From: a virus
Taxonomy: Duplodnaviria; Heunggongvirae; Uroviricota; Caudoviricetes
DNA length: 42,980 nt
Direction: 5' to 3' (one strand)
Virus record (IMG/VR): IMGVR_UViG_2778261642_000006
Every line of letters begins with the position of its first letter. Position 1 is the stretch's first letter. Positions 13,875 to 32,331 of this stretch are shown here, one piece after another. A model generated the notes under the pieces. That model did not search any database. It saw only the letters and a list, made by a program, of their open reading frames with translations, and was not told where the DNA came from. The position numbers and the translations under genes were made by a program.

Positions 13875-13900
13875 CCATCTACATCACTGAGCTAATAACA

Positions 13901-13930: not shown

Positions 13931-13946
13931 TGGGGGAGAGTAAATC

Positions 13947-14153: not shown

Positions 14154-14170
14154 ACTGAGGGTAAGTATCG

Positions 14171-14437: not shown

Positions 14438-14439
14438 GT

Positions 14440-14646
14440 ATGACAAATCAGCAGCAAATAGAGTTCATCCTTGAGCAGATCCGAAAAATGCGAGAAAAGA
14501 ACCAGCCAGACATGATGGAAATATGGAGACGCCAGCAGGAAGAATACCGCAAGCATATTTTTGGTGAGAGAAAACAGGATGACTGGAGCCTATATGGCTA
14601 TGGCACCAGGACAAATAAAAACGGATATAGCCTTTACACATATTGA
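14440..14646 (+). CDS. Hypothetical protein
   Basis: 68 aa from MTNQQQIEFILEQ…; AGGAG RBS. Confidence 0.45.
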   Translation: MTNQQQIEFILEQIRKMREKNQPDMMEIWRRQQEEYRKHIFGERKQDDWSLYGYGTRTNKNGYSLYTY

Positions 14647-14654
14647 GGAATTCC

Positions 14655-15065
14655 ATGAAACAGACAATTTTCCTCAGGAGTAAGCAACAACAGCAAGCCG
14701 CAATCAACGCCATCCTCGCAACACCACTCGATAAAGACAAGCCAGTTACCATCCGCATTACTGACTACAAGCGCAACCTTGACCAGAACGCAAAATTTCA
14801 CGCGATGCTGGCGGATATCGCAAGTCAGGTTCAATGGTGCGGCAAATGGTTAAAACCAGAACAATGGAAGGTTTTGTTGATAAGCGGTCATGCAGTGGCT
14901 ACAAAGCAGGAAGCTGATGTTTTGCCCGGGCTTGAAGGCGAATACGTCAACATTCGCGAAAGCAGCGCGCAGATGAGTGTGAAGCGTATGGCAAGTCTGA
15001 TTGAGTACACGACAGCCTGGGCTATTGGTCAGGGTGTCAGATTTACCGACAGGAGGTATGAATGA
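14655..15065 (+). CDS. ninB: NinB recombination protein
   Basis: 136 aa from [11 protein letters not shown]…; …[27 protein letters not shown]… matches recalled lambda NinB pattern. Confidence 0.8.
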
Positions 15066-15238
15066 GGCGACAGCGACGAAGTTTCACCGACATCATCTGC
15101 GAAAACTGCAAATACCTTCCAACGAAACGCTCCAGAAATAAACGCAAGCCAATCCCAAAAGAATCTGACGTAAAAACCTTCAACTACACGGCTCACCTGT
15201 GGGATATCCGGTGGCTAAGACATCGTGCGAGGAAATGA
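15062..15238 (+). CDS. ninE: NinE
   Basis: Hand-translated 58 aa [58 protein letters not shown], near-identical to recalled lambda NinE; ATGA overlaps on both sides. Confidence 0.75.
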
Positions 15239-16224
15239 CGATGACTGCGTATTACAACGAAATAGATCCGTATGCAGCGCAATGGCTGCGTAACTTAATT
15301 GACGCTGGAGAAATTGCCCCCGGTTATGTAGATGAAAGGAGTATTGAAGATGTCACACCAGGTGATTTGCGAGGATTTACCCAGCACCACTTTTTTGCAG
15401 GAATCGGAGTTTGGAGCTATGCACTTAGAAAAGCAGGATGGCCAGACAACAAGAGTATCTGGACAGGAAGTTGCCCATGCCAACCTTTCAGCTCGGCAGG
15501 CAAAGGAAAAGGGGTTGATGACGAGCGGCACTTATGGCCGGCATTCTTCTGGCTTATTGAAAAATGCAATCCTGGCATCGTTATTGGCGAACAGGTTGCA
15601 AGCGCAGACGGCCTCGCTTGGCTCGACCTTGTACAAACTGACTTGGAAGGTGCGAACTACACCTCTGCAGGTACCGATATTTGCGCTGCGGGCTTCGGTT
15701 CTCCGCACATCAGGCAGCGATTGTATTGGGTGGCCTACTCCAACGACAAATATCAACTTTCAGCCAGAGACGCGCAGGGGAATTCAGAACCTATCTGGAT
15801 GCGTGAGACTAGCGGGATGGCAAACTCCTTTAGCGAACGATGCAACAGGTTCAACGCATTGCTACAGCGGAAAAGACAAGAGCGGAACCCCAAGAATCTG
15901 CTTGAAACTTCCCGGGACGGTGAAGCTATGTACCCATTACCGGTTAACGGCTTCTGGAGAGATGCAGACTGGCTTTACTGTAGAGATGAAAAATATCGTC
16001 CAGTTAGACCCGGCTCATTCCCGATGGTTAATGGCATTGCCAAAAGCTTGGGACGAGGCAAGTCCACACTGGGAAGAATGGCAAAGCGCAATCAAGATCA
16101 GCGAATTATTGGATATGGAAACGCAATCAATGCAGAAGTAGCAACGGCATTCGTGAAAGTTTGTATGGAGGTTGTTAATGCTTATCCCATCCCAATCCAT
16201 TCAATACCAGAAAGAAAGCGTTGA
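15235..16224 (+). CDS. DNA (cytosine-5)-methyltransferase, orphan
   Basis: Motif [12 protein letters not shown], catalytic PCQ ([16 protein letters not shown]), ENV-like region; no restriction endonuclease partner seen. Confidence 0.85.
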
Positions 16225-16354
16225 GCGGGCTTTAACGTGCGCTAACTGCGGTCAGAAGCTGCATGTGCTGGAAGTTCACGTGTGCTCCGATTGCTGCGCA
16301 GAACTGATGAGCGATCCGAATAGCTCGATGCACGAGGAAGAAGACGATGGCTAA
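16178..16354 (+). CDS. ninF: NinF
   Basis: 58 aa [66 protein letters not shown]; matches recalled lambda NinF. Confidence 0.75.
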   Translation: MLIPSQSIQYQKESVERALTCANCGQKLHVLEVHVCSDCCAELMSDPNSSMHEEEDDG

Positions 16355-16913
16355 ACCAGCGCGAAGACGATGTAACCGTAAAAGAGAAGATTTAACTGTT
16401 AAAAGGATATTTGAGTTACTAAGTTTCGATAAATCTACCGGGGTATTTAGATGGAAAGTTCCCACTCAGGGAAGGATAGCATTAAATAGTGTTGCTGGAA
16501 CTTTTGATTCCAACGGTTATTCAATGATCATGATAGATGGGCGTAGATATAAAACTCACATCTTAGTTTTTTACATAACTCATAATCGCTGGCCTGCTGG
16601 TCAAATTGACCACGTTAATGGAATTAGGACCGACAATAGGCCAGAAAATTTAAGAGAATGCCTGCCAATAGAAAATTCAAGAAATATAAGGATCCGAAAG
16701 AACAGCAAATCAGGTTGCAGAGGAGTTACTTGGCACAAACGACAGAAAAAATGGAATGTTAGGCTAGGTTTCCATGGCAAGAGTAAACACTTCGGATGCT
16801 TTGATGATCTGGAGTTAGCGGTACTAGTTGCTGAAGAAGCCCGAGATAAGTATTACGGTGATTTTTCCGGCAACGAAAGGAGCACTTATGCGAATCTATC
16901 GAAGGAAATGTAA
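16347..16913 (+). CDS. HNH endonuclease with AP2-like DNA-binding domain, apparently inserted at the ninG 5' end
   Basis: Begins MAKPARRRC (recalled NinG N-terminus) then HNH motifs (…[18 protein letters not shown]…) and AP2-like segment (…[31 protein letters not shown]…). Confidence 0.75.
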
Positions 16914-17490
16914 ATGTTGCAATGAATGGTTTATACCAAAATATCAAAATCAATATTGGTGTAATGAGATTTGTGGAACCAAGATAGCACTCGAACGACG
17001 AAGTAAAGAACGCGAAAAAGCGGAAAAAGCAGCAGAGAAGAAACTACGACGAGAGGAGCAGAAACAGAAAGATAAACTGAAGATTCGAAAACTCGCCTTA
17101 AAGCCCCGCAGTTACTGGATTAAACAAGCACAACAAGCCGTAAACGCCTTCATCAGAGAAAGAGACCGCGACTTACCATGTATCTCGTGCGGAACGCTCA
17201 CGTCTGCTCAGTGGGATGCCGGACATTACCGGACAACTGCTGCGGCACCTCAACTCCGATTTGATGAACGCAATATTCACAAGCAATGCGTGGTGTGCAA
17301 CCAGCACAAAAGCGGAAATCTCGTTCCGTATCGCGTCGAACTGATTAACCGCATCGGGCAGGAAGCAGTAGACGAAATCGAATCAAACCATAGCCGCCAT
17401 CGCTGGACTATCGAAGAGTGCAAGGCGATCAAGGCAGAGTACCAACAGAAACTCAAAGACCTGCGAAATAGCAGAAGTGAGGCCGCATGA
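16888..17490 (+). CDS. ninG: NinG (Rap-like recombination protein), N-terminus replaced
   Basis: From [15 protein letters not shown]…; from …[24 protein letters not shown]… onward matches recalled lambda NinG; AAGGAG RBS inside the HNH gene 3' end. Confidence 0.75.
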
Positions 17491-17693
17491 CGTTCTCAGT
17501 AAAAACCATTCCAGACATGCTCGTTGAAGCATACGGAAACCAGACAGAAGTAGCACGCAGACTGAAATGTAGTCGCGGCACGGTAAGAAAATACGTTGAT
17601 GATAAAGACGGGAAAATGCACGCCATCGTCAACGACGTTCTCATGGTTCATCGCGGATGGAGTGAAAGAGATGCGCTATTACGAAAGAATTGA
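17487..17693 (+). CDS. ninH: NinH
   Basis: 68 aa [37 protein letters not shown]… matches recalled lambda NinH. Confidence 0.8.
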
Positions 17694-18342
17694 TGGCAGC
17701 AAATACCGAAATGTTTGGGTAGTTGGCGATCTGCACGGATGCTACACGAACCTGATGAAAAAACTGGAGACGATAGGATTCGACACCAAAAAAGACCTGC
17801 TTATCTCGGTGGGCGATTTGGTTGATCGCGGTACAGAGAACGTCGAATGTCTGGAATTAATCACATTCCCCTGGTTCCGAGCTGTACGTGGAAACCATGA
17901 GCAAATGATGATTGATGGCTTATCAGAGCGTGGAAACGTCAATCACTGGCTGTTTAATGGCGGTGGCTGGTTCTTTAATCTCGATTACGACAAAGAAATT
18001 CTGGCTAAAGCTCTTGCCCATAAAGCAGATGAACTTCCGTTAATCATCGAACTGGTGAGCGAAGGTAAAAAATATGTCATCTGCCACGCCGATTATCCCT
18101 GTGACGAATACGAGTTTGGAAAGCCAGTTGATCATCAGCAGGTAATCTGGAACCGCGAACGAATCAGCAACTCACAAGACGGGATCGTGAAAGAAATCAA
18201 AGGAGCGGACACGTTCATCTTTGGTCATACGCCAGCAGTGAAACCACTCAAGTTTGCCAACCAGATGTATATCGATACCGGCGCAGTGTTCTGCGGAAAC
18301 CTCACATTGATTCAGGTACAGGGAGAAGGCGCATGGGCATAA
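17671..18342 (+). CDS. ninI: Ser/Thr protein phosphatase (NinI, lambda PPase-like)
   Basis: From [28 protein letters not shown]…; metallophosphatase motifs GDLHG, GDLVDRG, GNHE. Confidence 0.9.
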
Positions 18343-18851
18343 GAGAACTAAACCTCACCAAAGAGCAGCACGAGTGGCTGAATGGCTGGCTTGAACTGTG
18401 GGGAGCATGGGTTTATTCAGGTCGTCTGGAAAAGCGCATGAGCAGCGTAATAGCTAAGTTCATGGAGAGCGTAGAGCCGGGAAGAGTTATGACAAGGCCA
18501 ATGTGTAATGATGATGATGGAATGTTGATTTCTCAGGTCGTCGATTCCGTCATGTACATTGACAAGAAAGCCTTTGGCATCCTCCTCAGCTACTACGCTC
18601 ATGGTTCATCTAAGCGAGCAATTGCATCCTACTATCACGAGACTGCAAAGCCACGCAAGATGTGTGGGCGTGGTGGCGAGGGATGGAGAAAACCTTCACT
18701 GGCAACCTGTAGAAACGAAATTGACGATATCCTGAAAGCGTCATTATTTGTTTTGTACCAACCAATGAAAAATGCTTTCAAAATGCGTAAACGTGTTGAG
18801 AAAGTTAAGCATGTTGCTGTTAAAAGTCTTGACATGCAATTAGCCATTTAG
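18333..18851 (+). CDS. Q: Late-gene antiterminator Q (non-lambda Q family)
   Basis: 172 aa; directly upstream of pR'-like promoter and tR'; composition resembles the Q family of phage 21/82 type; mainly positional. Confidence 0.6.
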
Positions 18852-18858
18852 CCATAAT
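18829..18858 (+). promoter_or_regulatory. Late promoter pR'-like (TTGACA, 17-18 nt spacer, CATAAT)
   Basis: gtcTTGACAtgcaattagccatttagcCATAATat at the 3' end of Q, ~45 nt upstream of the tR' hairpin. Confidence 0.6.
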
Positions 18859-18898
18859 ATTCACATATGCTGCTGCTTTTGCATTCAGCAACCATCAC

Positions 18899-18924
18899 AA
18901 GCCCACCTCCTGTGGGCTTTTTTG
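18899..18924 (+). terminator. tR'-like intrinsic terminator
   Basis: AAGCCCAC-ctcct-GTGGGCTT followed by TTTTTTGC. Confidence 0.75.
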
Positions 18925-19045
18925 CATTCGCGTGCAATCAAAACAAGAGTCTTAGTGATATGGGCCTGAGATATGGTGGTGGAAACATCGCTCCGCTCTT
19001 GGCTGTCATATCTACGCGAACAGGCTCTATCCCTAAGGTAAAGCG

Positions 19046-19558
19046 ATGAAAGAAATAAAATTAACGCCAGAAATGGTGCTTTCTGTTGTTGATTACAATC
19101 CATCGTCAGGCGACTTTCACTGGAGATGGAGGCAGGGGAGAGAGAGGACCACTTTGACATGGAACTCTCGTTTTGCTTTCAAGAAATGCTCATCAATAAA
19201 TTCTGATGGGTATTTAATGATTATGATTAATGGTAAAGCATACCCTGCTCACAGACTGGCATGGTTGATTGTTTATGGCACCATGCCCGATGGTTTTATT
19301 GATCACATCAACAGGGTAAGAACAGATAACCGGATATCAAATCTTCGTCTTGTCACTCATTCCGAAAATATGCAAAACAGGAAAATTCAGAAGAATAATA
19401 AATCTGGATACCGTGGCGTGTCTTGGGATGCTAAGTACGGGAAATGGAGAGCAAGAATTAATGCGTCTGGAAAGTGTATTAACCTTGGATACCATGACAC
19501 TGCCGAACTTGCCGCTGCGGCTTTTGAGGCAGCCAGAATGAAATATCATACCGTTTAA
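19046..19558 (+). CDS. HNH endonuclease with AP2-like domain (paralogue of 16347..16913)
   Basis: 170 aa; shares HNH block (…IDHINRVRTDNRISNLR…) and AP2-like block (…SGYRGVSWDAKYGKWRARINASGKCINLGYH…) with the ninG-associated copy. Confidence 0.8.
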   Translation: MKEIKLTPEMVLSVVDYNPSSGDFHWRWRQGRERTTLTWNSRFAFKKCSSINSDGYLMIMINGKAYPAHRLAWLIVYGTMPDGFIDHINRVRTDNRISNLRLVTHSENMQNRKIQKNNKSGYRGVSWDAKYGKWRARINASGKCINLGYHDTAELAAAAFEAARMKYHTV

Positions 19559-19612
19559 AGATGTAAGCTGCCGTTAGTGACTCTTAAGTTGCAACGGTGG
19601 CTTTTTTTATTT

Positions 19613-19687
19613 GGGTCAGTCGTATAAAGGTCATTACGGAAGGCTGTTAACCTTCTTATCGTGGTTCGAGTCCACGCTGTCCCGCCA
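19613..19687 (+). tRNA. tRNA-like gene, anticodon GUU (Asn) by manual folding
   Basis: Acceptor GGGTCAG/CTGTCCC (1 mismatch), weak D-stem, anticodon arm GAAGG-CTGTTAA-CCTTC, T-arm CGTGG-TTCGAGT-CCACG, discriminator G, CCA. Confidence 0.5.
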
Positions 19688-19692
19688 AATAT

Positions 19693-19768
19693 GCTGGTTT
19701 AGCTCCAATGGTAGAGCAGTCGCCTTGTAAGCGAATGGGTAGCGGTTCAAGTCCGTTAACCAGCACCA
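19693..19768 (+). tRNA. tRNA, anticodon UGU (Thr) by manual folding
   Basis: 76 nt; acceptor GCTGGTT/AACCAGC, D-arm GCTC…GAGC, anticodon loop CTTGTAA, T-loop TTCAAGT, discriminator A, CCA. Confidence 0.6.
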
Positions 19769-20011
19769 TAACTGAGCCGTAGCCACTGGCTATCCTGAAT
19801 TCATCAGTGATAGTTATGCTGCGGCCTTCTACACATGACCATCGTGAAAGCGGGTGGCAAGAGGCTGCGCTAACAACCTCCTGCCGTTTTGCCCGTGCAT
19901 ATCGGTCACGAACAAATCTGATTACTAAACACAGTAGCCTGGATTTGTTCTATCAGTAATCGACCTTATTCCTAATTAAATAGAGCAAATCCCCTTATTG
20001 GGGGGTAAGAC

Positions 20012-20335
20012 ATGAAGATGCCAGAAAAACATGACCTGTTAGCCGCCATTCTCGCGGCAAAGGAACAAGGCATCGGGGCAATCCTTGCGTTTGCAATGGC
20101 GTACCTTCGCGGCAGATACAATGGTGGTGCGTTTACAAAAACAGTAATCGACGCAACGATGTGCGCCATTATCGCCTGGTTCATTCGTGACCTTCTCGAC
20201 TTCGCCGGACTAAGTAGCAATCTCGCTTATATAACGAGCGTGTTCATCGGCTACATCGGTACTGACTCGATTGGTTCGCTTATCAAACGCTTCGCTGCTA
20301 AAAAAGCCGGAGTAGAAGATGGTGGAAATCAATAA
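20012..20335 (+). CDS. S: Holin S (lambda S107/S105 dual start)
   Basis: [34 protein letters not shown]… essentially identical to recalled lambda S. Confidence 0.95.
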
Positions 20336-20795
20336 TCAACGTAAGGCGTTCCTCGATATGCTGGCGTGGTCAGAGGGAACTGATAACGGACGTCAGAAAA
20401 CCAGAAATCATGGTTATGACGTCATTGTAGGTGGTGAGCTATTCACTGATTACTCCGATCACCCTCGTAAACTTGTCACGCTAAACCCCAAACTCAAATC
20501 AACAGCAGCCGGACGCTACCAGCTTCTTTCCCGTTGGTGGGATGCCTATCGTAAGCAGCTTGGCCTGAAAGACTTCTCTCCGAAAAGCCAGGACGCTGTG
20601 GCACTGCAACAGATTAAAGAGCGTGGCGCTTTACCGATGATTGATCGCGGTGATATCCGTCAGGCAATCGACCGTTGCAGCAATATCTGGGCTTCACTGC
20701 CGGGCGCTGGTTATGGTCAGTTCGAGCATAAGGCTGACAACCTGATTGCAAAATTCAAAGAAGCAGGCGGAACGGTCAGAGAGATTGAGGTATGA
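20319..20795 (+). CDS. R: Endolysin R (lytic transglycosylase)
   Basis: [51 protein letters not shown]… matches recalled lambda R. Confidence 0.95.
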
Positions 20796-21259
20796 GCAGA
20801 GTCACCGCGATTATCTCCGCTCTGGTTATCTGCATCATCGTCTGCCTGTCGTGGGTTGTTAATCATTACCGTGATAACGCCATCGCCTACAAGGAGCAGC
20901 GCGATAAAAAAGTCAGAGAGCTGAAGCAGGCGACTGCCACCATTACTGACATGCAGCAGCGCCAGCGCGATGCTGATGCACTCGATGCTAAATACACGAA
21001 GGAGTTAGCTGATGCGAAAGCTGAAAATGATGCTCTTCGGCGCAAGCTTGATAATGGTGGCAGGGTGCTCGTCAAAGGAAAATGCCCTGTGCCATCCTCA
21101 GACGAAACCTCCAGCGCCTCCGGCATGGGCAATGATGCCACCGTCGAACTCTCTCCAGTTGCTGGACGAAACGTTCTCGGTATCCGGGACGGAATTATCC
21201 GCGACCAAACAGCACTGAGAACGCTTCAGGAGTACATCAGGACGCAATGCCTTCGATGA
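20792..21259 (+). CDS. Rz: Spanin inner-membrane subunit Rz
   Basis: [34 protein letters not shown]… matches recalled lambda Rz N-terminus; C-terminus diverges. Confidence 0.9.
21012..21218 (+). CDS. Rz1: Spanin outer-membrane lipoprotein Rz1 (embedded in Rz, +1 frame)
   Basis: [21 protein letters not shown]… lipobox followed by proline-rich region, entirely within Rz. Confidence 0.8.
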
Positions 21260-21480
21260 TAGCGATAATTTTACTCATCATCCTTCACATCTGGCTCTGT
21301 AGACAGGGTGGTGATCACTTCTGGAGTAAATCCAGATTAAACATCTCATTGCTGATGCTTGATATTGAGCATCTGGCGCGCGGTAAGGGGCTGCGTTGAG
21401 ATAAGAGCCAGTCATCACAAACACCAGGATTTAGCCTCGCATTCGCGGGGTTTTTTATTCCCAACTCCATAGGTAATTTT

Positions 21481-21960
21481 ATGACCCAGCATATTGGCGT
21501 AAAACTGATTAACGCCTTTCCGATGACGAGACAGGCATATAACGATTTTCGTGGCTGGCAGCTTCCTGCCGGAGAAAACGGCGAGGACGAAGGCTATCTG
21601 GTTGAATATCTGGATGGCGGAAAACCTAACACCGATCGCTTTGATGGCTACGTTAGCTGGAGTCCAAAAGAAGTATTCGAAAAGGCTTATCGTCCGGTAT
21701 CAGGGTTAAGTTTCGGCCTTGCCATGGAAGCGTTAAAACAGGGCAAAAGTTTGCAGCGGGCAGGATGGAATGGGAAAGACCAGTTTGTTTATCTCGTGAA
21801 AGGGGAAAAATTAGCGTCTGCGTTGGGTTATGGCTTTGGCGAATATGTTGGCGAGCCAACTTTCAATGACACGCTTGTATTGAAAAACTCACAGAACCGC
21901 CTTGCTACATGGGTTCCATCCATTGGCGACCTGATGGCTGAAGACTGGCAAATCATTTAA
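21481..21960 (+). CDS. Hypothetical protein, C-terminal half DUF2829-like (possible Tad2-like)
   Basis: 159 aa; …AMEALKQGKSLQRAGWNGKDQFVYLV…WVPSIGDLMAEDWQII resembles my recollection of the DUF2829 pattern; N-terminal ~70 aa unassigned. Confidence 0.45.
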   Translation: MTQHIGVKLINAFPMTRQAYNDFRGWQLPAGENGEDEGYLVEYLDGGKPNTDRFDGYVSWSPKEVFEKAYRPVSGLSFGLAMEALKQGKSLQRAGWNGKDQFVYLVKGEKLASALGYGFGEYVGEPTFNDTLVLKNSQNRLATWVPSIGDLMAEDWQII

Positions 21961-22263
21961 CCATGTAGGCATTACAAAGCCTATCTACGGGTGGGCTTGA
22001 TAATGAAACCGGAGTTAATTTCTGGTCACTAATTAACGGCAGTACAGCGAAACAACCCAAGCCAGTAAGTGGGGAAATAACACTGGCAGCCACTGAAAGA
22101 TGAACCTCCAGCCTTATGGCAAAAAAGATTCTTTGTGGTGGCGGACTGATGGAAAGACATCGGTTATTGCAGAGGCCATTCAATGAATGGTCTCGACAAT
22201 GGCTTATACCCTACACGGGATAACTTAACTGATATCCCTTTTAACGGATAAACGGAGCCAACA

Positions 22264-22506
22264 ATGGCAGAGATTATTCCCATGACTGAAGAACAGAAAT
22301 TCCAGTTAGAGATTTACAAGCTGGTCATGAACCAGAGCGCAGCCGCAGAGGAAGCATTTCAATTCATCGGCACTGACGCGTTGAAGCTTGAGCTATTCAA
22401 AATTCACTTCCAGTCAGGCGGCGCTAATTCAGATATCACGACCCGCACAATCGAAGCGGTGCGTAAATCGAAGGAAGCGTTAGACCTGTTCACCACCGGA
22501 GCATGA
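22264..22506 (+). CDS. Hypothetical protein
   Basis: 80-aa ORF upstream of terminase genes. Confidence 0.45.
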   Translation: MAEIIPMTEEQKFQLEIYKLVMNQSAAAEEAFQFIGTDALKLELFKIHFQSGGANSDITTRTIEAVRKSKEALDLFTTGA

Positions 22507-22507
22507 T

Positions 22508-22699
22508 GTGAGTCGCGTAATAATTTTGGGTAAGGAGAAGAAATTCCCAATTACTCAAGAGCTATACGAGAGGCTGGAAAGCGTCATCCATGATTATGGT
22601 GAAATCAGTGTATGTGAGGCGATTGGTACACTCGAATTGCTGAAGCAGTCATTGATTGAAAGCATGAAGAGCCAACGACCTGAAATGACAATTAAGTGA
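22508..22699 (+). CDS. Hypothetical protein
   Basis: 63-aa ORF starting 2 nt after the upstream stop. Confidence 0.45.
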   Translation: MSRVIILGKEKKFPITQELYERLESVIHDYGEISVCEAIGTLELLKQSLIESMKSQRPEMTIK

Positions 22700-22706
22700 G
22701 ATGAAT

Positions 22707-23129
22707 ATGGCGACTGAACCAAAAGCTGGTCGCCCCTCTGATTATATGCCGGAGGTGGCTGACGATATCTGCTCGTTGCTTTCTTCTGGCGAGAGCTTGC
22801 TGAAAGTATGCAGGCGCCCAGGTATGCCGGATAAGTCCACTGTTTTCCGCTGGTTGGCAAAGCATGAGGATTTTCGCGACAAGTACGCGAAGGCAACTGA
22901 GGCACGAGCTGATTCTATTTTCGAAGAGATATTCGAAATTGCTGACAATGCGATTCCAGATGCTGCTGAGGTGGCAAAGGCAAGACTTCGCGTTGATACC
23001 CGCAAATGGGCGCTGGCCAGAATGAATCCCCGTAAGTATGGCGACAAGGTAACTAACGAGCTTGTCGGTAAGGACGGCGGCGCAATCCAGATTGAAACAT
23101 CACCGATGAGTACTCTATTCGGAAAATGA
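22707..23129 (+). CDS. Terminase small subunit
   Basis: 140 aa from MATEPKAGRPSDYMPEVADDICSLLSSGESLLKVCRRPGMPDKSTVFRWL… (HTH-like); directly upstream of large terminase with overlapping stop/start. Confidence 0.7.
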   Translation: MATEPKAGRPSDYMPEVADDICSLLSSGESLLKVCRRPGMPDKSTVFRWLAKHEDFRDKYAKATEARADSIFEEIFEIADNAIPDAAEVAKARLRVDTRKWALARMNPRKYGDKVTNELVGKDGGAIQIETSPMSTLFGK

Positions 23130-24541
23130 CCTCGATTAATCCTATCTTTGAACCGTTCATTGAGGCGCATCGCTACAAAGTCGCCAAAGGCGGTCGAGGT
23201 AGCGGTAAGTCATGGGCAATTGCGAGGCTGCTTGTTGAAGCGGCGCGTCGGCAGCCAGTGCGTATTCTCTGCGCTCGTGAACTGCAAAACAGTATCAGCG
23301 ATTCGGTAATCAGGTTACTTGAAGATACCATCGAGCGGGAAGGGTATTCGGCTGAGTTTGAAATTCAGCGTTCCATGATTCGTCATCTCGGAACGAATGC
23401 TGAATTCATGTTCTACGGCATCAAAAACAACCCGACGAAGATTAAATCGCTCGAAGGCATTGATATCTGCTGGGTGGAAGAAGCGGAAGCGGTAACGAAG
23501 GAATCATGGGATATCCTGATACCAACCATCCGCAAGCCATTTTCCGAAATATGGGTGAGCTTTAACCCGAAAAACATCCTCGACGATACCTATCAGCGAT
23601 TCGTCGTAAATCCTCCAGATGATATTTGCCTGCTGACGGTGAACTACACCGACAACCCGCACTTTCCTGAAGTTCTCCGTCTGGAGATGGAAGAGTGTAA
23701 ACGCAGAAATCCGACCCTGTATCGTCACATCTGGCTTGGTGAGCCAGTGAGCGCAAGTGATATGGCAATCATCAAACGTGAATGGCTTGAAGCCGCAACC
23801 GATGCGCACAAGAAACTAGGATGGAAAGCGAAAGGCGCTGTTGTTTCTGCACATGACCCGTCAGATACAGGGCCGGATGCTAAAGGTTATGCATCGCGTC
23901 ACGGTTCGGTTGTTAAGCGCATTGCCGAAGGTCTGCTGATGGACATCAACGAGGGTGCTGACTGGGCTACTTCGCTGGCGATTGAAGACGGCGCTGACCA
24001 TTACCTGTGGGATGGTGATGGTGTTGGTGCCGGGCTACGCAGACAGACAACGGAAGCGTTCTCCGGCAAGAAAATCACCGCCACGATGTTCAAGGGCAGC
24101 GAATCGCCATTCGATGAAGATGCACCGTATCAGGCCGGAGCATGGGCTGATGAAGTCGTACAGGGCGACAACGTTCGCACTATTGGCGATGTATTCCGCA
24201 ATAAGCGAGCGTAATTCTATTACGCGCTGGCTGACAGGCTGTATCTGACATATCGGGCGGTTGTTCACGGTGAGTATGCAGACCCAGACGACATGCTGAG
24301 TTTCGACAAAGAAGCGATAGGCGAGAAGATGCTGGAGAAGCTGTTTGCAGAACTGACGCAGATTCAGCGCAAATTCAATAACAACGGGAAGCTGGAGCTT
24401 ATGACTAAGGTCGAAATGAAGCAGAAGCTCGGTATTCCATCTCCTAACCTGGCTGATGCACTGATGATGTGTATGCATTGCCCGGAGTCGGCTGCGCAAC
24501 CCGACTATTCCAGTTACTCAATTCCTTGTGGTGTAGGTTGA
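23126..24541 (+). pseudogene. Terminase large subunit interrupted by in-frame TAA at 24212..24214
   Basis: Walker A VAKGGRGSGKS; 362-aa ORF ends at TAA, and the same frame continues without frameshift (FYYALADRLYLTYRAVVHGEYADPDDMLSFDKEAIG…) to 24541, 2 nt before the portal start. Confidence 0.7.
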
Positions 24542-24542
24542 T

Positions 24543-26741
24543 ATGGCAGAAAAAAAGATGACTGACTGGCATCGCAAGGTGCTGTGCAACTTTGATAATG
24601 CCTGGTCAGCAACGCAGGATATGCGTGAGCAGATTATTGAGGCTCAGCGTTTCGTCCGGGTGTCCGGCGCACAGTGGGAAGGCAGCACAAACGCTGGTTA
24701 CTCATTTGATGAAGGCAGGTTTGAGCATTATCCGCGTTTTGAACTGAATAAGATTTCCCGTGAATGTGATCGCATCATTGGCGAGTATCGGCAGAATCGC
24801 ATCAGCGTTAAATTCAGGCCAAAGGATGACAAGGCATCGGAAGCGTTAGCCGAAAAGATGAACGGCAAATTCCGCGCTGATTATCAGGAAACATCCGGTG
24901 GCGAAGCGTGTGATAACGCATTTGATGATGCTGTAACGGGCGGATTCGGTTGTTTCCGCATGTGTGCTGATTACGAAGATGAAATGGATCCGAGTAACGA
25001 GCAGCGACGCATCAGTCTTCTTCCTGTTTACGACCCAGCGACATGCGTCTTCTTCGATCAGGACAGCAAGCAATATGACCGCTCTGATGCTATGTGGGCT
25101 ATGGAAATGTTCTCCATGACGCCTAAAGCGTTCGAGGCTGAATACCCTGATTCCATCGCGGCAAGCCTTTCTCGTGATGACACTGGCACTCAATATGACT
25201 GGTCAACTCCTGATGCCATCTATGTTGGACGCTACTACGAAGTTCGCATAGAGAAGGTGAAGCTCACGGCGTGGCGCAACCCTGTTAGCGGAGAAACGGC
25301 AATCTATGATGAAGAGCAAATCAAAGATATTGTCGACGAACTGACCGATGGTGCATTCGAACTGATTGGCGAGCGAACGGTGAAGAAGCGCCGCGTTTAT
25401 TGCGGTCTTCTGTCTGGCGCTGAATGGCTGGAAGAACCGAAGCGTATTCCGGGCGAACATATTCCTCTCATCCCGGTATATGGGCGTCGCTCATTTGTTG
25501 ATAATCAGGAGCGAATCGAAGGCCACGCAGCAAAAGCGATGGATGCACAGCGTCTTGAGAACCTGATGGTTTCCATGATTGCAGATAACGCCACTCAGGC
25601 TGGCGGTGATGGCATTCCTATCGTGGATGTTGATTTCATTCCCGGCCCATTAATGAATCACTGGGCAGAGAGGAATAAGAAAAGACCTGCAGTTCTTCCT
25701 ATGACCAGCAAGAAGGACAAAAACGGAACAGTCATTTCAGAAGCTCAGGTTGCTGGCTGGACACCTCCGACACAAATGCCTCCTGCTCTTGCCGGGCTAT
25801 TGCAGTACACCGGAACTGCTATTCAGCAAATTACAGGCGCGTCGCAGCTTGAGAACATGCCGAGCAACGTCGCTACTGATACCGTTGATAGCATCTTTAA
25901 CCGGATGGATACGCAGTCCTATATCTACATGGACAACATGGCTAAATCCATGCGTCGCGCTGGCGTTGTGTGGCTTTCTATGGCGCGTGAAGTCTATGGC
26001 AGCGATACGCCGATGCGTATCGTTAATGAGGACGGCAGCGATGACGTGGCGCTGATGACTGGTGAAGTGATTGACCGTCAGACAGGGCAGGTTATCGCGC
26101 TTAACGACCTTTCGCAGGGTAACTATGAAGTGACTGTCGATGTTGGTCAGTCGTTCGCTACTCGCCGTGATGCAACGGTTAAGTCGTTACTTTCCATGCT
26201 GGCACTTATCCCGCCAGGAACGCCGAAGCATGACCTTGTATCGTCGATGATTCTCGACAATATGGACGGCGAAGGGATGGAGGACCTTAAAGAATACAAC
26301 CGCAATCAGTTGCTTCTGTCTGGCGTTATCAAGCCGAGAACGCCAGAAGAGCAGCAAATGGTTGAGCAGGCGAAACAACAACAGGCCAGTCAGCCAGATC
26401 CGGCTATGGTTGCTGCGCAAGGTCAGCTTCTTGCTGGTCAGGCTGAATTGCAGAAAGCGCAGAACGAACAGGCAGCCATTCAGGTTAAAGCATTCCAGGC
26501 ACAGACTGATGCTCAGGTTGCAGCGGCAAATGTTGTGAAAATCCTCGCATCTGCCGATAGCCAGCAGAAATCTGATATCCGCGAGGCTCTGAAACTGCTC
26601 GGACAGTTCCAGCAACAGCAAGGAGACAATGCCCGTGCTGATGCAGAGCTTGTCCTGAAAAGTCAGGCACAGGGCCATGCGCAGCGCATGGACATCAGCA
26701 GCATCCTGCAAAAACCAACTCAGCAACAACCACAGCAGTAA
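24543..26741 (+). CDS. Portal protein (P22 gp1 family)
   Basis: 732 aa; conserved blocks shared with recalled P22 portal (…KRRRVY…GEHIP…PV…, C-terminal …RMDI…ILQ…). Confidence 0.9.
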   Translation: MAEKKMTDWHRKVLCNFDNAWSATQDMREQIIEAQRFVRVSGAQWEGSTNAGYSFDEGRFEHYPRFELNKISRECDRIIGEYRQNRISVKFRPKDDKASEALAEKMNGKFRADYQETSGGEACDNAFDDAVTGGFGCFRMCADYEDEMDPSNEQRRISLLPVYDPATCVFFDQDSKQYDRSDAMWAMEMFSMTPKAFEAEYPDSIAASLSRDDTGTQYDWSTPDAIYVGRYYEVRIEKVKLTAWRNPVSGETAIYDEEQIKDIVDELTDGAFELIGERTVKKRRVYCGLLSGAEWLEEPKRIPGEHIPLIPVYGRRSFVDNQERIEGHAAKAMDAQRLENLMVSMIADNATQAGGDGIPIVDVDFIPGPLMNHWAERNKKRPAVLPMTSKKDKNGTVISEAQVAGWTPPTQMPPALAGLLQYTGTAIQQITGASQLENMPSNVATDTVDSIFNRMDTQSYIYMDNMAKSMRRAGVVWLSMAREVYGSDTPMRIVNEDGSDDVALMTGEVIDRQTGQVIALNDLSQGNYEVTVDVGQSFATRRDATVKSLLSMLALIPPGTPKHDLVSSMILDNMDGEGMEDLKEYNRNQLLLSGVIKPRTPEEQQMVEQAKQQQASQPDPAMVAAQGQLLAGQAELQKAQNEQAAIQVKAFQAQTDAQVAAANVVKILASADSQQKSDIREALKLLGQFQQQQGDNARADAELVLKSQAQGHAQRMDISSILQKPTQQQPQQ

Positions 26742-26831
26742 TTAACCCATAACGTGCAATGGCTGTCTTTATGAGGCCTGGCACCCTATTGCCTTCCGAT
26801 GGGCTGAACATCGAGTAAACAGGGGTAACAA

Positions 26832-27725
26832 ATGGATCAGATGGCAGAAAACACACCAGAAGTTGAAATCGAAACCGACGCGTCAGAGCAGATTCCTGAT
26901 GATGTCGAACTGGCTGAAGAAGTCGAAACAGAAGATGGCAGTGAGTCCTCCGGCAATGATGCAGAGGAAGCTACTGAAACTGATGACGACGAATCAGAGC
27001 AGGAATTCTACTTTGGTGACGAAAAGCTGGATTCGCCAACCAGCGAAGATGGCGCAGAGCATGGACTGGTAAAACACCTGCGCAAGACGATTAAAGAGAA
27101 AGACCGCGAACTGAAAGAGCTGATGCGTCAGTCTCAGAAACCCGTCGAGCAGCAGCCGGTAATCACTCAACCACCGCGAATGCCAAAACTGGATGATGAG
27201 GACATCGGTTTCGATGAAGAAATCTATCAGCAACGTATGGCTAAGTGGGCAGAGGAAAACGGCAAATACCAGGAGCAAGTACGAGAGCGGAAACGAGAGG
27301 AAGAGGCGCGTACCGCAACTCTTCAGCAGAAAGCAGCCAATTACATGCAGAGAGTAAAAGCACTGAAAGTGGCTGGCTACCAGGATGCAGAGCAGGCTGT
27401 ACGCGAAGATGTTCCTGTTCATATTCAGGACATGATCCTTCTTGAGTCAGAGAAGCCGGAAATCGTTGTTCTGGCGCTCGGCCGCAACGCTGAACTGCGC
27501 AAGCAACTGGCAGAAGCTACCAACCCCGTAGCAATTGGTCGTCTGCTGGAACGTATCGAATCGAAGGCCAGAATCATGCCAAAAGCAAAAACCACGGCAG
27601 CCACAACCCCGACAGTTAAGGGGAGCAACGGCGCAGTAATCAATAACCTCGACAAACTGAAAGCCAAGGCGCTGGAAACTGGTGACTGGACGCCGTATTT
27701 CGCCGCTAAAAAGGCAAAAAAATAA
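26832..27725 (+). CDS. Scaffolding protein (P22 gp8-like)
   Basis: 297 aa; highly acidic N-terminus, coiled-coil middle, basic C-terminus; between portal and coat. Confidence 0.75.
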   Translation: MDQMAENTPEVEIETDASEQIPDDVELAEEVETEDGSESSGNDAEEATETDDDESEQEFYFGDEKLDSPTSEDGAEHGLVKHLRKTIKEKDRELKELMRQSQKPVEQQPVITQPPRMPKLDDEDIGFDEEIYQQRMAKWAEENGKYQEQVRERKREEEARTATLQQKAANYMQRVKALKVAGYQDAEQAVREDVPVHIQDMILLESEKPEIVVLALGRNAELRKQLAEATNPVAIGRLLERIESKARIMPKAKTTAATTPTVKGSNGAVINNLDKLKAKALETGDWTPYFAAKKAKK

Positions 27726-27743
27726 CCTATCGGAGCATTAAGC

Positions 27744-28997
27744 ATGGCTAACCAATTAGCAAAAGACCTTGAAATCATGTTCGAAAACTACGTTGAAGGC
27801 TTTGAGGCCGCCTGCGTAGTTTCCCGTAACGCTAAAAAATTCCGTCCCGGTGATACAGCAATGCAGCGAGCAGGTGATGTTCTGTATCGTCCGCAGCATT
27901 ACCACATGAACATTGAGGAAGGCCTCGACCTCAGCAGCAAAACACCAACAGCACTGGTTCAGCGCCTTGTTCCTTCTGTGTTCAAGGAGCCGAAAAACAT
28001 TCTGTACACTCTGGATGCGCGTGAAATGCGTGACCCGGAACATAAAACTGAAGCTGGTCGCGCCGCAGGTATGCGCCTTGCTGCACAGATTGACTCTGAC
28101 CTGATTTCCATGGTCACGCAGCGTGCTACTAACGTGATCACAATGGCTGACTCAACCACTGGTTCACAGGGCCGTGATTTGTGGAACTGTGCGGCAGGTA
28201 TTGATGCCACCATGACGGCGATTGGTGTACCACAGGGTATCAACCGCCGCTCTTTCTGGAACCCCTTCAACTATAAAGACCTTGCTGGCGAGCTTGGTCA
28301 CCGTGCTTATGCTCAGGGCGCAACCCTGACAGCATACGAAAAAGCGCAGATCCCTCCGGTTGCGTCCTTCGATAGCTACAAGACCGATATTTCCGGTCGT
28401 GTTCCGAAGGGTACAGCAACTTCCATTACGCTGGCAGCAGCACCTGCGCACAAGGTTGAAGCGAAAGATGCTAACGATATGCCAGTGGATAACCGACAGG
28501 GGACCATTACGGTATCTGCTGAAGGTTTGCAGGTTGGCGATGCGTTTACCATCGCAGGGGTGAATTCCGTACACCAGATCACCAAAGATACCACCGGGCA
28601 GCCGCAGGTATTCCGCGTTCTGGCAGTTAGCGGAACGACAGTAACTATATCCCCGAAAATTCTGCCGCCTGACAACGCGGATGTCGCCAGCCGTCCATAT
28701 GCAAACGTTGATGCTAATGCGGCAAGTAGCGCAGCAATCACCATTCTCAACAAAAATGCCGCACCGGCTAACCTGTTCTGGGCTGATGGTTCTGTTGAAC
28801 TGATGTACGGCAAACTGGCGTTCCCGACTGGTCAGGGTCCACAGGTAATGACAGCAACCACCGAGCAGGGCGCTACGCTGATCATGTCTTATGCCTTCGA
28901 CCACATCAAAGGCGTAACCACTGCTCGTTTCACCACTCTGTACGGTTGCTCTGTACTTGTTCCTGAATATACGGGCATCGTTATTGCCGGGCAGTAA
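27744..28997 (+). CDS. Major capsid (coat) protein, P22 gp5-like
   Basis: 417 aa; size and position after scaffold; followed by a strong terminator. Confidence 0.8.
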   Translation: MANQLAKDLEIMFENYVEGFEAACVVSRNAKKFRPGDTAMQRAGDVLYRPQHYHMNIEEGLDLSSKTPTALVQRLVPSVFKEPKNILYTLDAREMRDPEHKTEAGRAAGMRLAAQIDSDLISMVTQRATNVITMADSTTGSQGRDLWNCAAGIDATMTAIGVPQGINRRSFWNPFNYKDLAGELGHRAYAQGATLTAYEKAQIPPVASFDSYKTDISGRVPKGTATSITLAAAPAHKVEAKDANDMPVDNRQGTITVSAEGLQVGDAFTIAGVNSVHQITKDTTGQPQVFRVLAVSGTTVTISPKILPPDNADVASRPYANVDANAASSAAITILNKNAAPANLFWADGSVELMYGKLAFPTGQGPQVMTATTEQGATLIMSYAFDHIKGVTTARFTTLYGCSVLVPEYTGIVIAGQ

Positions 28998-29004
28998 TTT
29001 TGGT

Positions 29005-29027
29005 GGGGCTTCGGCCCCATTTTTATT
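29005..29027 (+). terminator. Intrinsic terminator after the coat gene
   Basis: GGGGC-ttcg-GCCCC followed by ATTTTTATT. Confidence 0.8.
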
Positions 29028-29038
29028 GGGAGAAGACA

Positions 29039-29227
29039 ATGGCACGAACAATGCTCTATAAGCCGGGCAACATGATCACCTGTGGTCAGTTTGCTGTCGA
29101 TTACATCATTGTTGATGACGAAGAAGTTAAATCTCACCTGAAAAAAGGCTGGGTAAAAACTCCTGAAGAAACCGCAACGAAGCAAAAAGTGGCTAAGGCG
29201 GAAGAAGATGGCGAAAACGAAGGGTGA
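29039..29227 (+). CDS. Hypothetical small protein
   Basis: 62 aa from MARTMLYKPGNMITCGQ…; immediately downstream of the coat terminator. Confidence 0.4.
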   Translation: MARTMLYKPGNMITCGQFAVDYIIVDDEEVKSHLKKGWVKTPEETATKQKVAKAEEDGENEG

Positions 29228-29669
29228 TCTCGTTCTTAAGGCTTTACGAAAAGCCGGGCTGTATTCCAATGCCACGTTGACAGATGCCGACCCTCAGGCA
29301 ATTGAAGATGCCATTAATGACCTCGAAGACATGATGGCAGCATGGCAGGCGAAAGGTATCGAGCTTGGATATCAGTTTGCTGATACAGAAAACGGCATCA
29401 TGCCGTTACCTGACGATGATTCAGGTATCCCTGCATGGGCAAATGATGGCGTCGCTTTGAAGCTCGCTGTGCAGGTGTGCATGGATAACGTCATTCAGCC
29501 GTCGGATGCTCTCCTGACCGCTGCTGACAGTGCATATCAGACAATCTGTATCGCTTTAACAAAAATACCACCACTTGAGCGACGAAATGACATGCCTCGC
29601 GGTAGTGGTAACAAAAGCGCGTTTACGTGGAATCGGTTTTACATCGAGAAAGATGATCCGAGTACGTGA
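29208..29669 (+). CDS. Tail accessory / head-completion protein (P22 gp4-like)
   Basis: 153 aa; N-terminus [46 protein letters not shown] resembles recalled P22 gp4. Confidence 0.75.
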   Translation: [153 protein letters not shown]

Positions 29670-29678
29670 GGTGAATAA

Positions 29679-31097
29679 ATGCCGATTCAGCAACTTCCGC
29701 TTATGAAAGGTGTCGGCAAAGATTTCCGAAACGCCGACTATATCGACTATCTGCCAGTGAATATGTTGGCTACACCCAAAGAAATCCTTAACAGCAGCGG
29801 ATATCTTCGTTCATTCCCGGGCATTGCCAAACGTTCTGATGTGAACGGAGTATCGCGAGGCGTCGAGTACAACATGGCGCAGAATGCTGTTTATCGCGTG
29901 TGTGGTGGAAAGCTGTACAAAGGAGAAAGTGAAGTCGGTGATGTTGCCGGAAGTGGTCGCGTATCAATGGCGCATGGTCGGACATCACAGGCGGTAGGCG
30001 TTAATGGTCAACTGGTCGAGTATCGCTATGATGGCACGGTTAAAACCGTCTCAAACTGGCCTACAGACAGCGGATTCACACAGTATGAGTTAGGTTCAGT
30101 TCGCGACATTACGCGCTTACGTGGCCGTTATGCGTGGTCAAAAGACGGCACCGATTCATGGTTTATCACTGACCTTGAAGACGAATCGCATCCTGACCGA
30201 TACAGCGCACAATATCGCGCAGAATCACAGCCTGACGGCATCATCGGAATCGGAACATGGCGAGACTTCATCGTCTGCTTTGGTACATCGACTATTGAAT
30301 ATTTCTCCCTGACTGGTGCAACCACAGTTGGTGCTGCTTTGTATGTCGCACAGCCATCGCTGATGGTGCAGAAAGGCATTGCCGGGACTTACTGCAAAAC
30401 ACCATTCGCTGATTCTTATGCGTTCATCAGCAATCCGGCAACGGGTGCGCCGTCTGTGTACATCATCGGTTCCGGGCAGGTGTCACCAATCGCCAGCGCG
30501 AGCATTGAGAAAATTCTTCGCACCTACACTGCTGATGAACTGGCTGATGGCGTAATGGAATCGCTGCGGTTTGATGCTCATGAATTGCTGATTATCCATC
30601 TTCCGCGTCACGTCCTCGTGTACGACGCATCTTCAAGCGCCAATGGTCCGCAATGGTGTGTGTTGAAAACAGGCCTGTATGACGATGTGTACCGCGCTAT
30701 CGACTTCATTTACGAAGGCAATCAGATAACGTGCGGCGATAAGCTGGAATCCGTGACCGGGAAATTGCAGTTCGATATCAGCAGCCAGTACGACAAGCAG
30801 CAGGAACACCTGCTGTTTACTCCACTATTCAAAGCAGATAACGCCAGAGTTTTCGACCTTGAGGTTGAATCGTCAACTGGCGTTGCGCAGTACGCCGACC
30901 GCCTGTTCCTCTCTGCAACCACTGACGGCATAAATTACGGACGTGAGCAGATGATTGAGCAGAATGAACCGTTCGTTTACGACAAGCGTGTTTTGTGGAA
31001 GCGAGTAGGGCGCATCAGGAAAAATGTCGGCTTCAAACTTCGCGTTATCACGAAGTCACCTGTAACTCTGTCTGGCGCTCAGATAAGGATTGAGTAA
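29679..31097 (+). CDS. Tail hub protein (P22 gp10-like)
   Basis: 472 aa, same length as P22 gp10; position between gp4-like and needle. Confidence 0.75.
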
Positions 31098-31945
31098 TGG
31101 CGGATTCATCACTGAATAATCCTGTAGCGGTTCAGGCTACGCGCCTTGATGCTTCAATTTTGCCACGCAATATATTCAGCCAGTCTTACCTGCTGTATGT
31201 CATTAATCAGGGGGCTGATGTAGGCGCAATTGCCGGGAAGGCAAATCAGGCTGGTCAGGGCGCTTATGACGCGCAGGTAAGGAACGATGAGCAGGATGTG
31301 ATTCTCGCTGACCATGAGCAGCGAATTTCTGCTGCGGAAGCAACGCTTGTTAATCATGAGGAGCGAATCAGCCAGGCAGAATCAACTCTTCAGGACCATG
31401 AAACACGAATCGCTCAGAATGAAAGCGATATTGCGTCGCTTGATACCAGAGTTCAGTCGCTGGAATCGCAGGTTTCAGACCATGAAACGCGCATCGATGC
31501 TCTGGAGTATGCAACTACTCGCAAGAAGTCAGAGGTTGTTTACTCTGGCGTATCTGTAACCATCCCGACAGCGCCGACCAACCTTGTTAGCCTGCTGAAA
31601 ACGCTCACGCCGTCATCTGGCACGTTGACACCATTCTTCGACACCGTTAACAACAAGATGGTTGTGTTCAACGAGAACAAAACCTTGTTCTTCAAGCTGT
31701 CGATCGTCGGGACGTGGCCCAGCGGAACCGCCAACAGGTCAATGCAGCTAACATTCTCCGGTTCTGTTCCTGACACACTGGTAAGCAGTCGCAACTCGGC
31801 GACAACAACCGATAACATCTTGTTAGCTACGTTCTTCAGCGTGGATAAAGACGGCTTTCTTGCCACAAATGGCAGCACGTTAACCATTCAGTCGAATGGT
31901 GCGGCGTTTACTGCCACAACCATCAAAATCATTGCGGAACAATGA
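31097..31945 (+). CDS. Tail needle protein (P22 gp26-like) with divergent C-terminal domain
   Basis: N-terminus [61 protein letters not shown] matches recalled gp26; heptad coiled coil; different C-terminal knob. Confidence 0.85.
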
Positions 31946-32331
31946 CAAACATAGACGCTATTACTGGCTCACAATTAATGAGATTGTGGGGTGTTAGCTC
32001 GTGGATTGATCCGGGGGCTAACTATTATTTGTGGGATGGGTGTTGCGTATTTGCCATGGTGAAACAATCAGGCTTCTATGACATCCATGTTGCAATGGAT
32101 AAACGAAGATGGAGTGAGTGCAGAAAAGCTGGTGAATCAATTCTTAAAATGTTTGGCCACCATAAATTGCGGGCGGTAATAATCAGCGACAGGCCAAGAG
32201 TATGCAACTATGCCAGGAGAATGGGGTTTGGTGAGCGAACGTTACAAACCCTAAGGACTGTAGATGGGCGCGAAAGCGCCTTTTTTATTATGTGGCGTGA
32301 TCCGGGGGAATATCATGGGCGGAGCAATTAA
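31942..32331 (+). CDS. Hypothetical virion-associated protein (P22 gp14 position)
   Basis: 129-aa ORF; assignment by position only. Confidence 0.4.

What the first reader, a model, noticed from the sequence alone, without database searches (positions are those of the whole stretch)
23126..24541. Large terminase carries an in-frame TAA (ochre) codon
The 362-aa ATPase-domain ORF ends at TAA (24212..24214), but the same frame continues with no frameshift for a further 108 codons of terminase-like sequence and ends 2 nt before the portal start. That looks like a single point nonsense mutation (consistent with CAA to TAA) removing part of the nuclease domain. The prophage may be unable to package DNA, which would make it a cryptic or recently inactivated element rather than an inducible phage.
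Basis: partly seen in the sequence, partly recalled or inferred. Interest (0 to 1): 0.7.

Follow-up and report, generated by a model that had tools for sequence, protein, structure and literature searches.

The report
Nonsense-mutated terminase in intact prophage
A single C-to-T change has put a stop codon in the DNA-packaging enzyme of an otherwise complete P22/Sf6-like prophage of E. coli; this almost certainly stops it making infectious particles, and it is an ordinary, very recent case of prophage decay.

Summary
The large-terminase (TerL) gene at 23126..24541 has an in-frame TAA at 24212..24214. After it come 108 more in-frame terminase codons and the normal TGA, one base before the portal ATG.

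Phages Sf101, Sf6, CUS-3 and HK620 all have CAA there. None of 565 complete E. coli genomes carrying this 61-bp site matches it exactly. The prophage of E. coli YP3 differs from this gene at exactly one base, 24212, and that is the only difference across 4.9 kb.

With Gln363 restored, the protein is identical to crystallised Sf6 gp2 over residues 1-453. The stop removes nuclease active-site residues K428, N441 and D444 and the C-terminus.

The T also appears in a separate read assembly (Logan SRR6728020), so a consensus error is unlikely.

No other gene with a close reference is broken. Integrase, excisionase, both lambda att cores, the lysis genes and all head and tail genes are intact. This is therefore a freshly inactivated prophage, not an old cryptic remnant.

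I found no sign of recoding, and there is no suppressor tRNA in the window. Other broken alleles of this TerL family occur in public assemblies.

The parts
23126..24214 (+). Truncated large-terminase ORF (362 aa plus TAA). It holds the ATPase domain (Walker A G22-S29, Walker B ICWVEE 114-119) and the first part of the RNase H-like nuclease domain (D244, D296).
24212..24214 (+). Ochre codon TAA (Q363stop). The T at 24212 replaces the C found in all homologues. The next base is T, giving the tetranucleotide TAAT.
24215..24541 (+). Orphaned 3' part of the terminase gene: 108 in-frame codons plus the native TGA. It encodes residues 364-471, including K428, N441 and D444. It is identical to the YP3 allele, and its differences from Sf101 are all at third codon positions.
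22701..23129 (+). Sf6-type small terminase gene. It overlaps the TerL start by 4 bases and is intact.
24543..26741 (+). P22-type portal gene (732 aa), intact, starting one base after the native TerL stop.
1331..41174 (.). The whole prophage, about 39.8 kb and P22/Sf6-like (Lederbergvirus-type). It is bounded by identical lambda att core sequences GCTTTTTTATACTAA at 1331-1345 and 41160-41174, and sits between ybhC-like and ybhB-like host genes.
1419..2489 (-). Lambda-type integrase (arm-binding, core and catalytic domains), intact. The excisionase lies just upstream at 2467..2775.

Best explanation
This is a genuine and very recent C-to-T transition (CAA to TAA, Gln363 to ochre) in the large-terminase gene of an otherwise complete P22/Sf6-like prophage. 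The prophage is integrated at the lambda attachment site of an E. coli chromosome.

Translation stops after residue 362. The product keeps the packaging ATPase domain and two of the three catalytic aspartates. It lacks the last 108 residues of the RNase H-like nuclease domain (K428, N441, D444) and the C-terminal tail.

The rest is inferred. Such a protein should be unable to cut concatemeric DNA and unable to drive headful packaging. On induction the prophage should still excise, replicate, build procapsids and tails and lyse the cell, but release no DNA-filled infectious particles. Rescue would need a related terminase supplied in trans or a host ochre suppressor.

The sequence change and its ancestral state are shown directly. 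The loss of function is inferred from the Sf6 gp2 structures and from the behaviour of P22 gene 2 nonsense mutants.
For: - In-frame TAA followed by 108 further terminase codons.
- CAA in Sf101, Sf6, CUS-3 and HK620.
- The only difference from the intact YP3 allele in 1416 bases, and the only difference in window 22338-27240.
- No exact match to the 61-bp site among 565 complete E. coli genomes that carry it.
- The same T in the source assembly GCA_002513305.1 and in a separate read assembly, Logan SRR6728020, whose contig runs unbranched through the site.
- The restored protein is identical to Sf6 gp2 (PDB 4IDH) over residues 1-453.
- D244, D296 and D444 bind the two catalytic metals, with N441 and K428 also in the active site (PMC4678813). 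K428, N441 and D444 map downstream of the stop.
- TIGR01547 aligns to profile positions 1-338 of 396 in the truncated product and 1-396 in the restored one.
- P22 phage with amber mutations in gp2 and gp3 is routinely grown on a non-suppressor host to produce procapsids (PMC11728703).
- No other in-frame stop or split gene relative to the YP3, Sf101 and CUS-3 references. Both att cores, the integrase and the excisionase are intact.
Against: - No raw reads could be inspected.
- It is not known whether SRR6728020 is an independent isolate or the run behind the deposited assembly.
- No experiment shows the packaging defect.
- The rest of the host genome is not in the window, so a suppressor tRNA or a second Sf6-type terminase able to complement cannot be excluded.
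- Genes without a close reference (parts of the early region, and the ejection-protein module at 31942-34314) were checked only for ORF integrity and distant homologues.
Confidence: 0.85

Rival explanations
1. Sequencing or consensus error: the true base at 24212 is C and the terminase is intact.
For: The allele is confined to one strain background. It is absent from 565 complete E. coli genomes. All other contigs returned for the 362-aa product simply end at that codon and show C where the base is visible.
Against: Two separately built assemblies carry the T: NCBI GCA_002513305.1 and the Logan assembly of SRR6728020. The Logan contig passes through the site without a branch. A lone substitution error in an otherwise clean 4.9-kb tract is unlikely at normal coverage.
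Confidence: 0.07
2. The stop is leaky or suppressed. A host ochre suppressor tRNA or natural readthrough supplies enough full-length TerL for the prophage to remain conditionally viable.
For: The downstream 108 codons are still perfectly intact, so any readthrough product would be functional. The host genome outside the window was not examined.
Against: The window encodes only tRNA-Asn(GTT) and tRNA-Thr(TGT). The stop context is TAA followed by T; from general knowledge of E. coli termination, not tested here, this is among the most efficient termination signals. No homologue has a stop here, so no evolved recoding signal is expected. The intact downstream codons are explained just as well by the mutation being very recent.
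Confidence: 0.04
3. The truncated TerL, or a two-piece TerL (362 aa plus an 82-aa C-terminal ORF from ATG 24293), is retained because it is useful. It might act as a split enzyme, or as a dominant-negative subunit that poisons the packaging motors of superinfecting relatives.
For: The truncated product keeps a complete ATPase domain. Gene callers do call an 82-aa ORF downstream.
Against: - Residues 363-389 would be missing from any two-piece enzyme.
- The ATG at 24293 has no recognisable Shine-Dalgarno sequence.
- The allele is found in only one strain background, so there is no sign of spread or selection.
- Other broken alleles carry unrelated lesions, which fits random decay.
Confidence: 0.02
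4. Natural two-gene architecture: relatives normally end TerL here and have an independent downstream gene.
For: None found.
Against: All annotated phage and prophage homologues examined have one uninterrupted gene of 470-471 codons with CAA at this codon. The site matches with one mismatch at best in all 565 complete genomes that carry it.
Confidence: 0.01

Closest known systems
Shigella phage Sf6 gp2 large terminase (PDB 4IDH/4IEE/4IEI/4IFE; nuclease domain 5C10, 5C12, 5C15)
   Same: With Gln restored at 363, the protein is identical over residues 1-453. It has the same Walker A and B motifs and the same D244/D296/D444 plus N441/K428 active site, and the same TerS-TerL-portal gene order.
   Different: Here codon 363 is TAA, so residues 363-470 are not made. 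The extreme C-terminus (after 453) belongs to the Sf101/CUS-3 variant rather than the Sf6/HK620 variant.
Prophage of E. coli YP3 (NZ_CP072687.1, terminase WP_000200766.1)
   Same: Same insertion site next to ybhB. Large blocks are 97.7-99.99% identical. The TerL gene is identical except for one base.
   Different: YP3 has CAA and an intact 471-aa TerL. Its ejection-protein module differs, and its helicase gene is interrupted.
Laboratory nonsense (amber) mutants of phage P22 gene 2 (large terminase)
   Same: A stop codon in the large terminase of a P22-like phage. On a non-suppressor host such mutants yield procapsids rather than phage (PMC11728703). That is the phenotype predicted here.
   Different: Those mutants are selected amber alleles in the P22-type terminase, propagated on suppressor hosts. 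This one is a spontaneous ochre in a natural isolate's Sf6-type terminase, with no known suppressor.
Other decayed alleles of the same TerL family in public assemblies
   Same: Independent disruptions of the same gene: a 1-nt deletion (L024), 8- and 9-nt deletions (L025, L023), a 2-nt insertion (L026), and large deletions (L017; L019 = GCA_900450225.1). The 90% cluster also holds truncated entries on long contigs, such as EQP17964.1.
   Different: Those lesions are indels or deletions, some on low-coverage contigs and several in clearly degraded prophages. Here the lesion is a single substitution in an otherwise complete prophage.

Membership tests
PBSX/Sf6-type phage large terminase (NCBIfam TIGR01547; Pfam Terminase_3) | Profile match above the curated cut-off | tested here: met
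   The truncated product scores 373 bits against a cut-off of 105 for TIGR01547, but covers only profile positions 1-338 of 396. The restored protein scores 410.5 bits over 1-396. Pfam Terminase_3 gives 142 bits over residues 15-206.
PBSX/Sf6-type phage large terminase (NCBIfam TIGR01547; Pfam Terminase_3) | Walker A and Walker B ATPase motifs | tested here: met
   GGRGSGKS at 22-29 and ICWVEE at 114-119.
PBSX/Sf6-type phage large terminase (NCBIfam TIGR01547; Pfam Terminase_3) | Complete RNase H-like nuclease active site (D244, D296, D444, with N441 and K428) on one polypeptide | tested here: not met
   D244 and D296 lie before the stop. K428, N441 and D444 are encoded after it. The gene is a member by descent but encodes an incomplete enzyme, so it is a pseudogene of the family.
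PBSX/Sf6-type phage large terminase (NCBIfam TIGR01547; Pfam Terminase_3) | Uninterrupted reading frame of about 470 codons ending next to the portal gene | tested here: not met
   TAA at codon 363. Homologues are uninterrupted.
P22-like (Lederbergvirus-type) temperate phage or prophage | Late-gene order TerS, TerL, portal, scaffold, coat, gp4, gp10, needle, ejection proteins, tailspike, with P22-family domains | tested here: met
   Pfam P22_portal, P22_CoatProtein, P22_Tail-4, Phage_stabilise, Phage_tail_NK, P22_gp7, Inj_translocase and Head_binding, in that order. Full-length matches to the YP3, Sf101 and CUS-3 genes.
Programmed stop-codon readthrough or recoding site | The stop codon is conserved at the same position in functional homologues | tested here: not met
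   CAA in four phages. No exact match to the T-containing 61-mer in the 565 complete E. coli genomes that carry the site.
Old cryptic or remnant prophage | Multiple lesions: deletions, several pseudogenes, lost att sites or lost integrase | tested here: not met
   No other in-frame stop or split gene against three references. Both att cores are identical. Integrase and excisionase are complete. Genes without close references were only partly checked.
Packaging-defective prophage (functional claim) | No encapsidated DNA or infectious particles after induction | not testable with these tools
   Requires induction, DNase-protection qPCR, electron microscopy and plaque assays.

The most novel reading that the evidence does not exclude
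The truncated 362-aa terminase, with its ATPase domain intact and its nuclease domain crippled, might be kept because it benefits the host. It could co-assemble with the terminase of superinfecting Sf6/HK620-type phages and poison their packaging motors. Alternatively, the prophage could persist as a conditionally viable element that depends on an ochre suppressor or a helper terminase.
Probability: 0.03. Interest if true: 0.5.

Novelty: new member of a known kind. Interest (0 to 1): 0.12.

Why it matters
The practical use is for annotation and for anyone working with this strain. The prophage looks complete and would be scored 'intact' by gene-content tools, yet it should not give infectious phage. 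It is also a clean example of the first inactivating hit in prophage decay: one substitution, with no other change across 4.9 kb compared with an intact sister prophage. It does not bear on any open question about terminases or phage biology.

Tried and rejected
1. Contigs encoding the exact 362-aa product. Seven of the nine hits (L008-L014) looked like more carriers of the allele. They are contigs that happen to end at codon 362, with C at the site where it is visible. I rejected them as an artefact of exact-product look-up. The A/G polymorphism at 24211 may help break metagenome contigs at this point.

2. Clustering of other lesions at gene positions 1092-1144. This looked like a hotspot. 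The 82-aa ORF look-up, however, can only find lesions between Met321 and Met390, so the clustering is mostly ascertainment.

3. Literature search for the run and assembly accessions returned nothing. The search for defective-prophage terminase nonsense mutations returned nothing useful.

4. An Rfam scan of the window found only the two tRNAs and no recoding element.

5. I considered 5-methylcytosine deamination by the prophage's own C-5 methyltransferase (15199..16224) as the cause. The ancestral context is GAGCGCAATT, and the mutated C is the 3' C of GCGC. From memory, that is not the base methylated by HhaI-type enzymes. The enzyme's specificity is unknown, so I did not pursue this.

6. Reinitiation at ATG 24293. 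There is no Shine-Dalgarno sequence upstream, and residues 363-389 would be missing anyway.

7. A 129-aa ORF in the gp14 position (31942..32331) looked short and had no Pfam hit. Full-length homologues of about 128 aa sit at the same position in lytic podoviruses, so it is not a second lesion.

Full report
**Observation.** The + strand ORF starting at ATG 23126 runs for 362 codons and ends at TAA 24212..24214. The same frame then continues for 108 sense codons to TGA 24539..24541. The portal ATG follows at 24543. The stop-to-start spacing is the same as in Sf101 and CUS-3.

**What the gene is.** The 1416-base stretch is 96-98% identical to the large-terminase genes of Sf101, Kapi1, CUS-3, HK620 and Sf6, all annotated as single genes of 470-471 codons. 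With Gln placed at position 363, the protein is identical to crystallised Sf6 gp2 (PDB 4IDH) over residues 1-453, so the Sf6 numbering applies directly.
- Pfam Terminase_3 covers residues 15-206.
- TIGR01547 (PBSX family large terminase) scores 373 bits on the truncated product but aligns to only 338 of its 396 positions. It scores 410.5 bits over the whole profile once the frame is read through.
- Walker A is at 22-29 and Walker B at 114-119.

**Ancestral state and age.** Sf101, Sf6, CUS-3 and HK620 all have CAA at this codon. The terminase gene of the E. coli YP3 prophage is identical to the window's gene except at 24212, C versus T. In the aligned block, that base is the only difference between window 22338 and 27240, a stretch of 4.9 kb covering the end of a small upstream gene, TerS, TerL, the portal and part of the scaffold gene. 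A 61-base query centred on the site matched 565 complete E. coli genomes. All matched with at least one mismatch and none exactly. The downstream 108 codons have not begun to decay. They are identical to YP3, and their four differences from Sf101 are all at third codon positions. The mutation is therefore a single and very recent C-to-T transition.

**Is the T real?** The window is identical to NLWQ01000001.1 of GCA_002513305.1, an E. coli assembly; the organism name comes. A separately built assembly of run SRR6728020 (Logan) has a 12-kb contig that matches the window over 11,979 bases, apart from one base six positions from the contig end. It carries the same T and has no branch at the site. 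I could not inspect reads or learn whether that run belongs to the same isolate, so a small chance of error remains.

The other seven contigs returned for the exact 362-aa product are contigs that stop at that codon. They show C where the next base is present, so they are not further carriers.

**Consequence for the protein.** In Sf6 gp2 the nuclease active site is formed by D244, D296 and D444, which hold the two catalytic metal ions. N441 also acts as a metal ligand, and K428 reaches into the site (PMC4678813). In the window, D244 and D296 lie before the stop, while K428, N441 and D444 lie after it. The product therefore has a whole ATPase domain and an incomplete RNase H-like domain. It also lacks the C-terminal tail.

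I infer that it can neither cut concatemers nor sustain headful packaging. This matches the classical behaviour of P22 gene 2 nonsense mutants, which are still used to make empty procapsids on non-suppressor hosts (PMC11728703).

**Could the stop be bypassed?**
- The window encodes only tRNA-Asn(GTT) and tRNA-Thr(TGT).
- The stop is followed by T. From general knowledge, TAAT is a strong termination context in E. coli.
- No homologue has a stop here, so no evolved recoding signal is expected.
- The first in-frame start after the stop is ATG 24293. It has no Shine-Dalgarno sequence, and residues 363-389 would be missing from any two-piece enzyme.

A suppressor or a helper terminase elsewhere in the genome cannot be excluded from the window alone.

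**State of the rest of the prophage.** The element runs from 1331 to 41174 between identical copies of the lambda att core GCTTTTTTATACTAA. Pectinesterase-family (ybhC-like) and PEBP-family (ybhB-like) host genes flank it. It has a complete lambda-type integrase and an excisionase.

Translated ORFs of the YP3 prophage, Sf101 and CUS-3 were searched against the window. TerL was the only genuine gene with an internal stop, and every shared gene aligned full length in one piece. The helicase, which is interrupted in YP3, is an uninterrupted 458-aa ORF here. A short ORF in the gp14 position has full-length homologues in lytic podoviruses and is not a lesion.

So 'recently inactivated' fits and 'cryptic remnant' does not. 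One caveat applies: the YP3 annotation shows only a 93-base relic of an N antiterminator gene in a block that the window shares at 99.5% identity. I did not work out how early antitermination is achieved in these two prophages.

**How ordinary is it?** Looking up the 82-aa ORF that gene callers place after the stop returned other public contigs where the same gene is broken in other ways. These include a 1-base deletion, 8- and 9-base deletions, a 2-base insertion and large deletions in degraded prophages. All have C at the site where it is present. The 90%-identity cluster of the 362-aa product contains 176 truncated or partial terminases. Some of these are contig-end or low-coverage artefacts. 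Even so, decay of this gene is clearly recurrent. The ochre allele itself was seen only in the source strain and in SRR6728020.

**Verdict.** The feature is a new instance of a well-known kind: a prophage gene knocked out by a nonsense mutation. Its only distinction is how clean and recent the event is. Interest is low.

Noticed in passing
window 21481..21960 (+): A 159-aa late-region protein with a Tad2-like (Thoeris anti-defence 2) domain, Pfam PF11195, E = 6e-22. It lies between the lysis genes and the terminase genes.
   Followed up: no
window 19046..19768 (+): An HNH-AP2 endonuclease ORF (170 aa) lies immediately upstream of two phage-borne tRNA genes, Asn(GTT) at 19613-19687 and Thr(TGT) at 19693-19768, just before the lysis cassette.
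   Followed up: partly
window about 8990..9556 (-), compared with L005 5638..6204: The YP3 annotation shows only a 93-base relic of an N antiterminator gene in a block the window shares at 99.5% identity. A 147-aa ORF with no Pfam match occupies the position next to the repressor. How early antitermination works in these prophages is unclear, and this could be a second, older defect.
   Followed up: no
L005 9146..11539 versus window 12498..13874: The YP3 prophage helicase gene carries a 1014-base insert that keeps one open 797-codon frame, possibly an intein. RefSeq annotates it as three pseudogene pieces. The window has the uninterrupted 458-aa helicase.
   Followed up: no
L023 and L025 (TerL gene positions 1098-1111, equal to window about 24223-24236): Two separate metagenome contigs carry an 8-9-base deletion at GGCTGACAGGCTG, between short GGCTG direct repeats, which suggests a slippage hotspot in this terminase gene. 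Both contigs have only about 2.6-2.8x coverage, so assembly error is possible.
   Followed up: partly
L008-L014 (ends of contigs at TerL codon 362): Seven unrelated public contigs end within 3 bases of the mutated codon, which mimics the truncated protein in exact-sequence look-ups. This is probably selection by the look-up itself, plus graph branching at the A/G polymorphism at window 24211.
   Followed up: partly
window 31942..34314 (+): The gp14/gp7/gp20 ejection-protein module has no close DNA match among deposited phages; the best match overlapping it is a patchy 86% (phage Louie). The 129-aa first ORF resembles proteins of lytic podoviruses (Aeromonas phage 4_4512, Escherichia phage sortsyn) rather than P22 gp14. 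This looks like a module swap.
   Followed up: partly
window 15199..16224 (+): A prophage-encoded C-5 cytosine DNA methyltransferase in the nin region. Its specificity is unknown. I considered and dropped it as a cause of the C-to-T change.
   Followed up: no
window 41850..42980 (+): A 376-aa ORF 100% identical to the YP3 gene that RefSeq annotates as an InsQ/TnpB-family RNA-guided endonuclease. It lies in the host flank next to ybhB, just outside attR.
   Followed up: no
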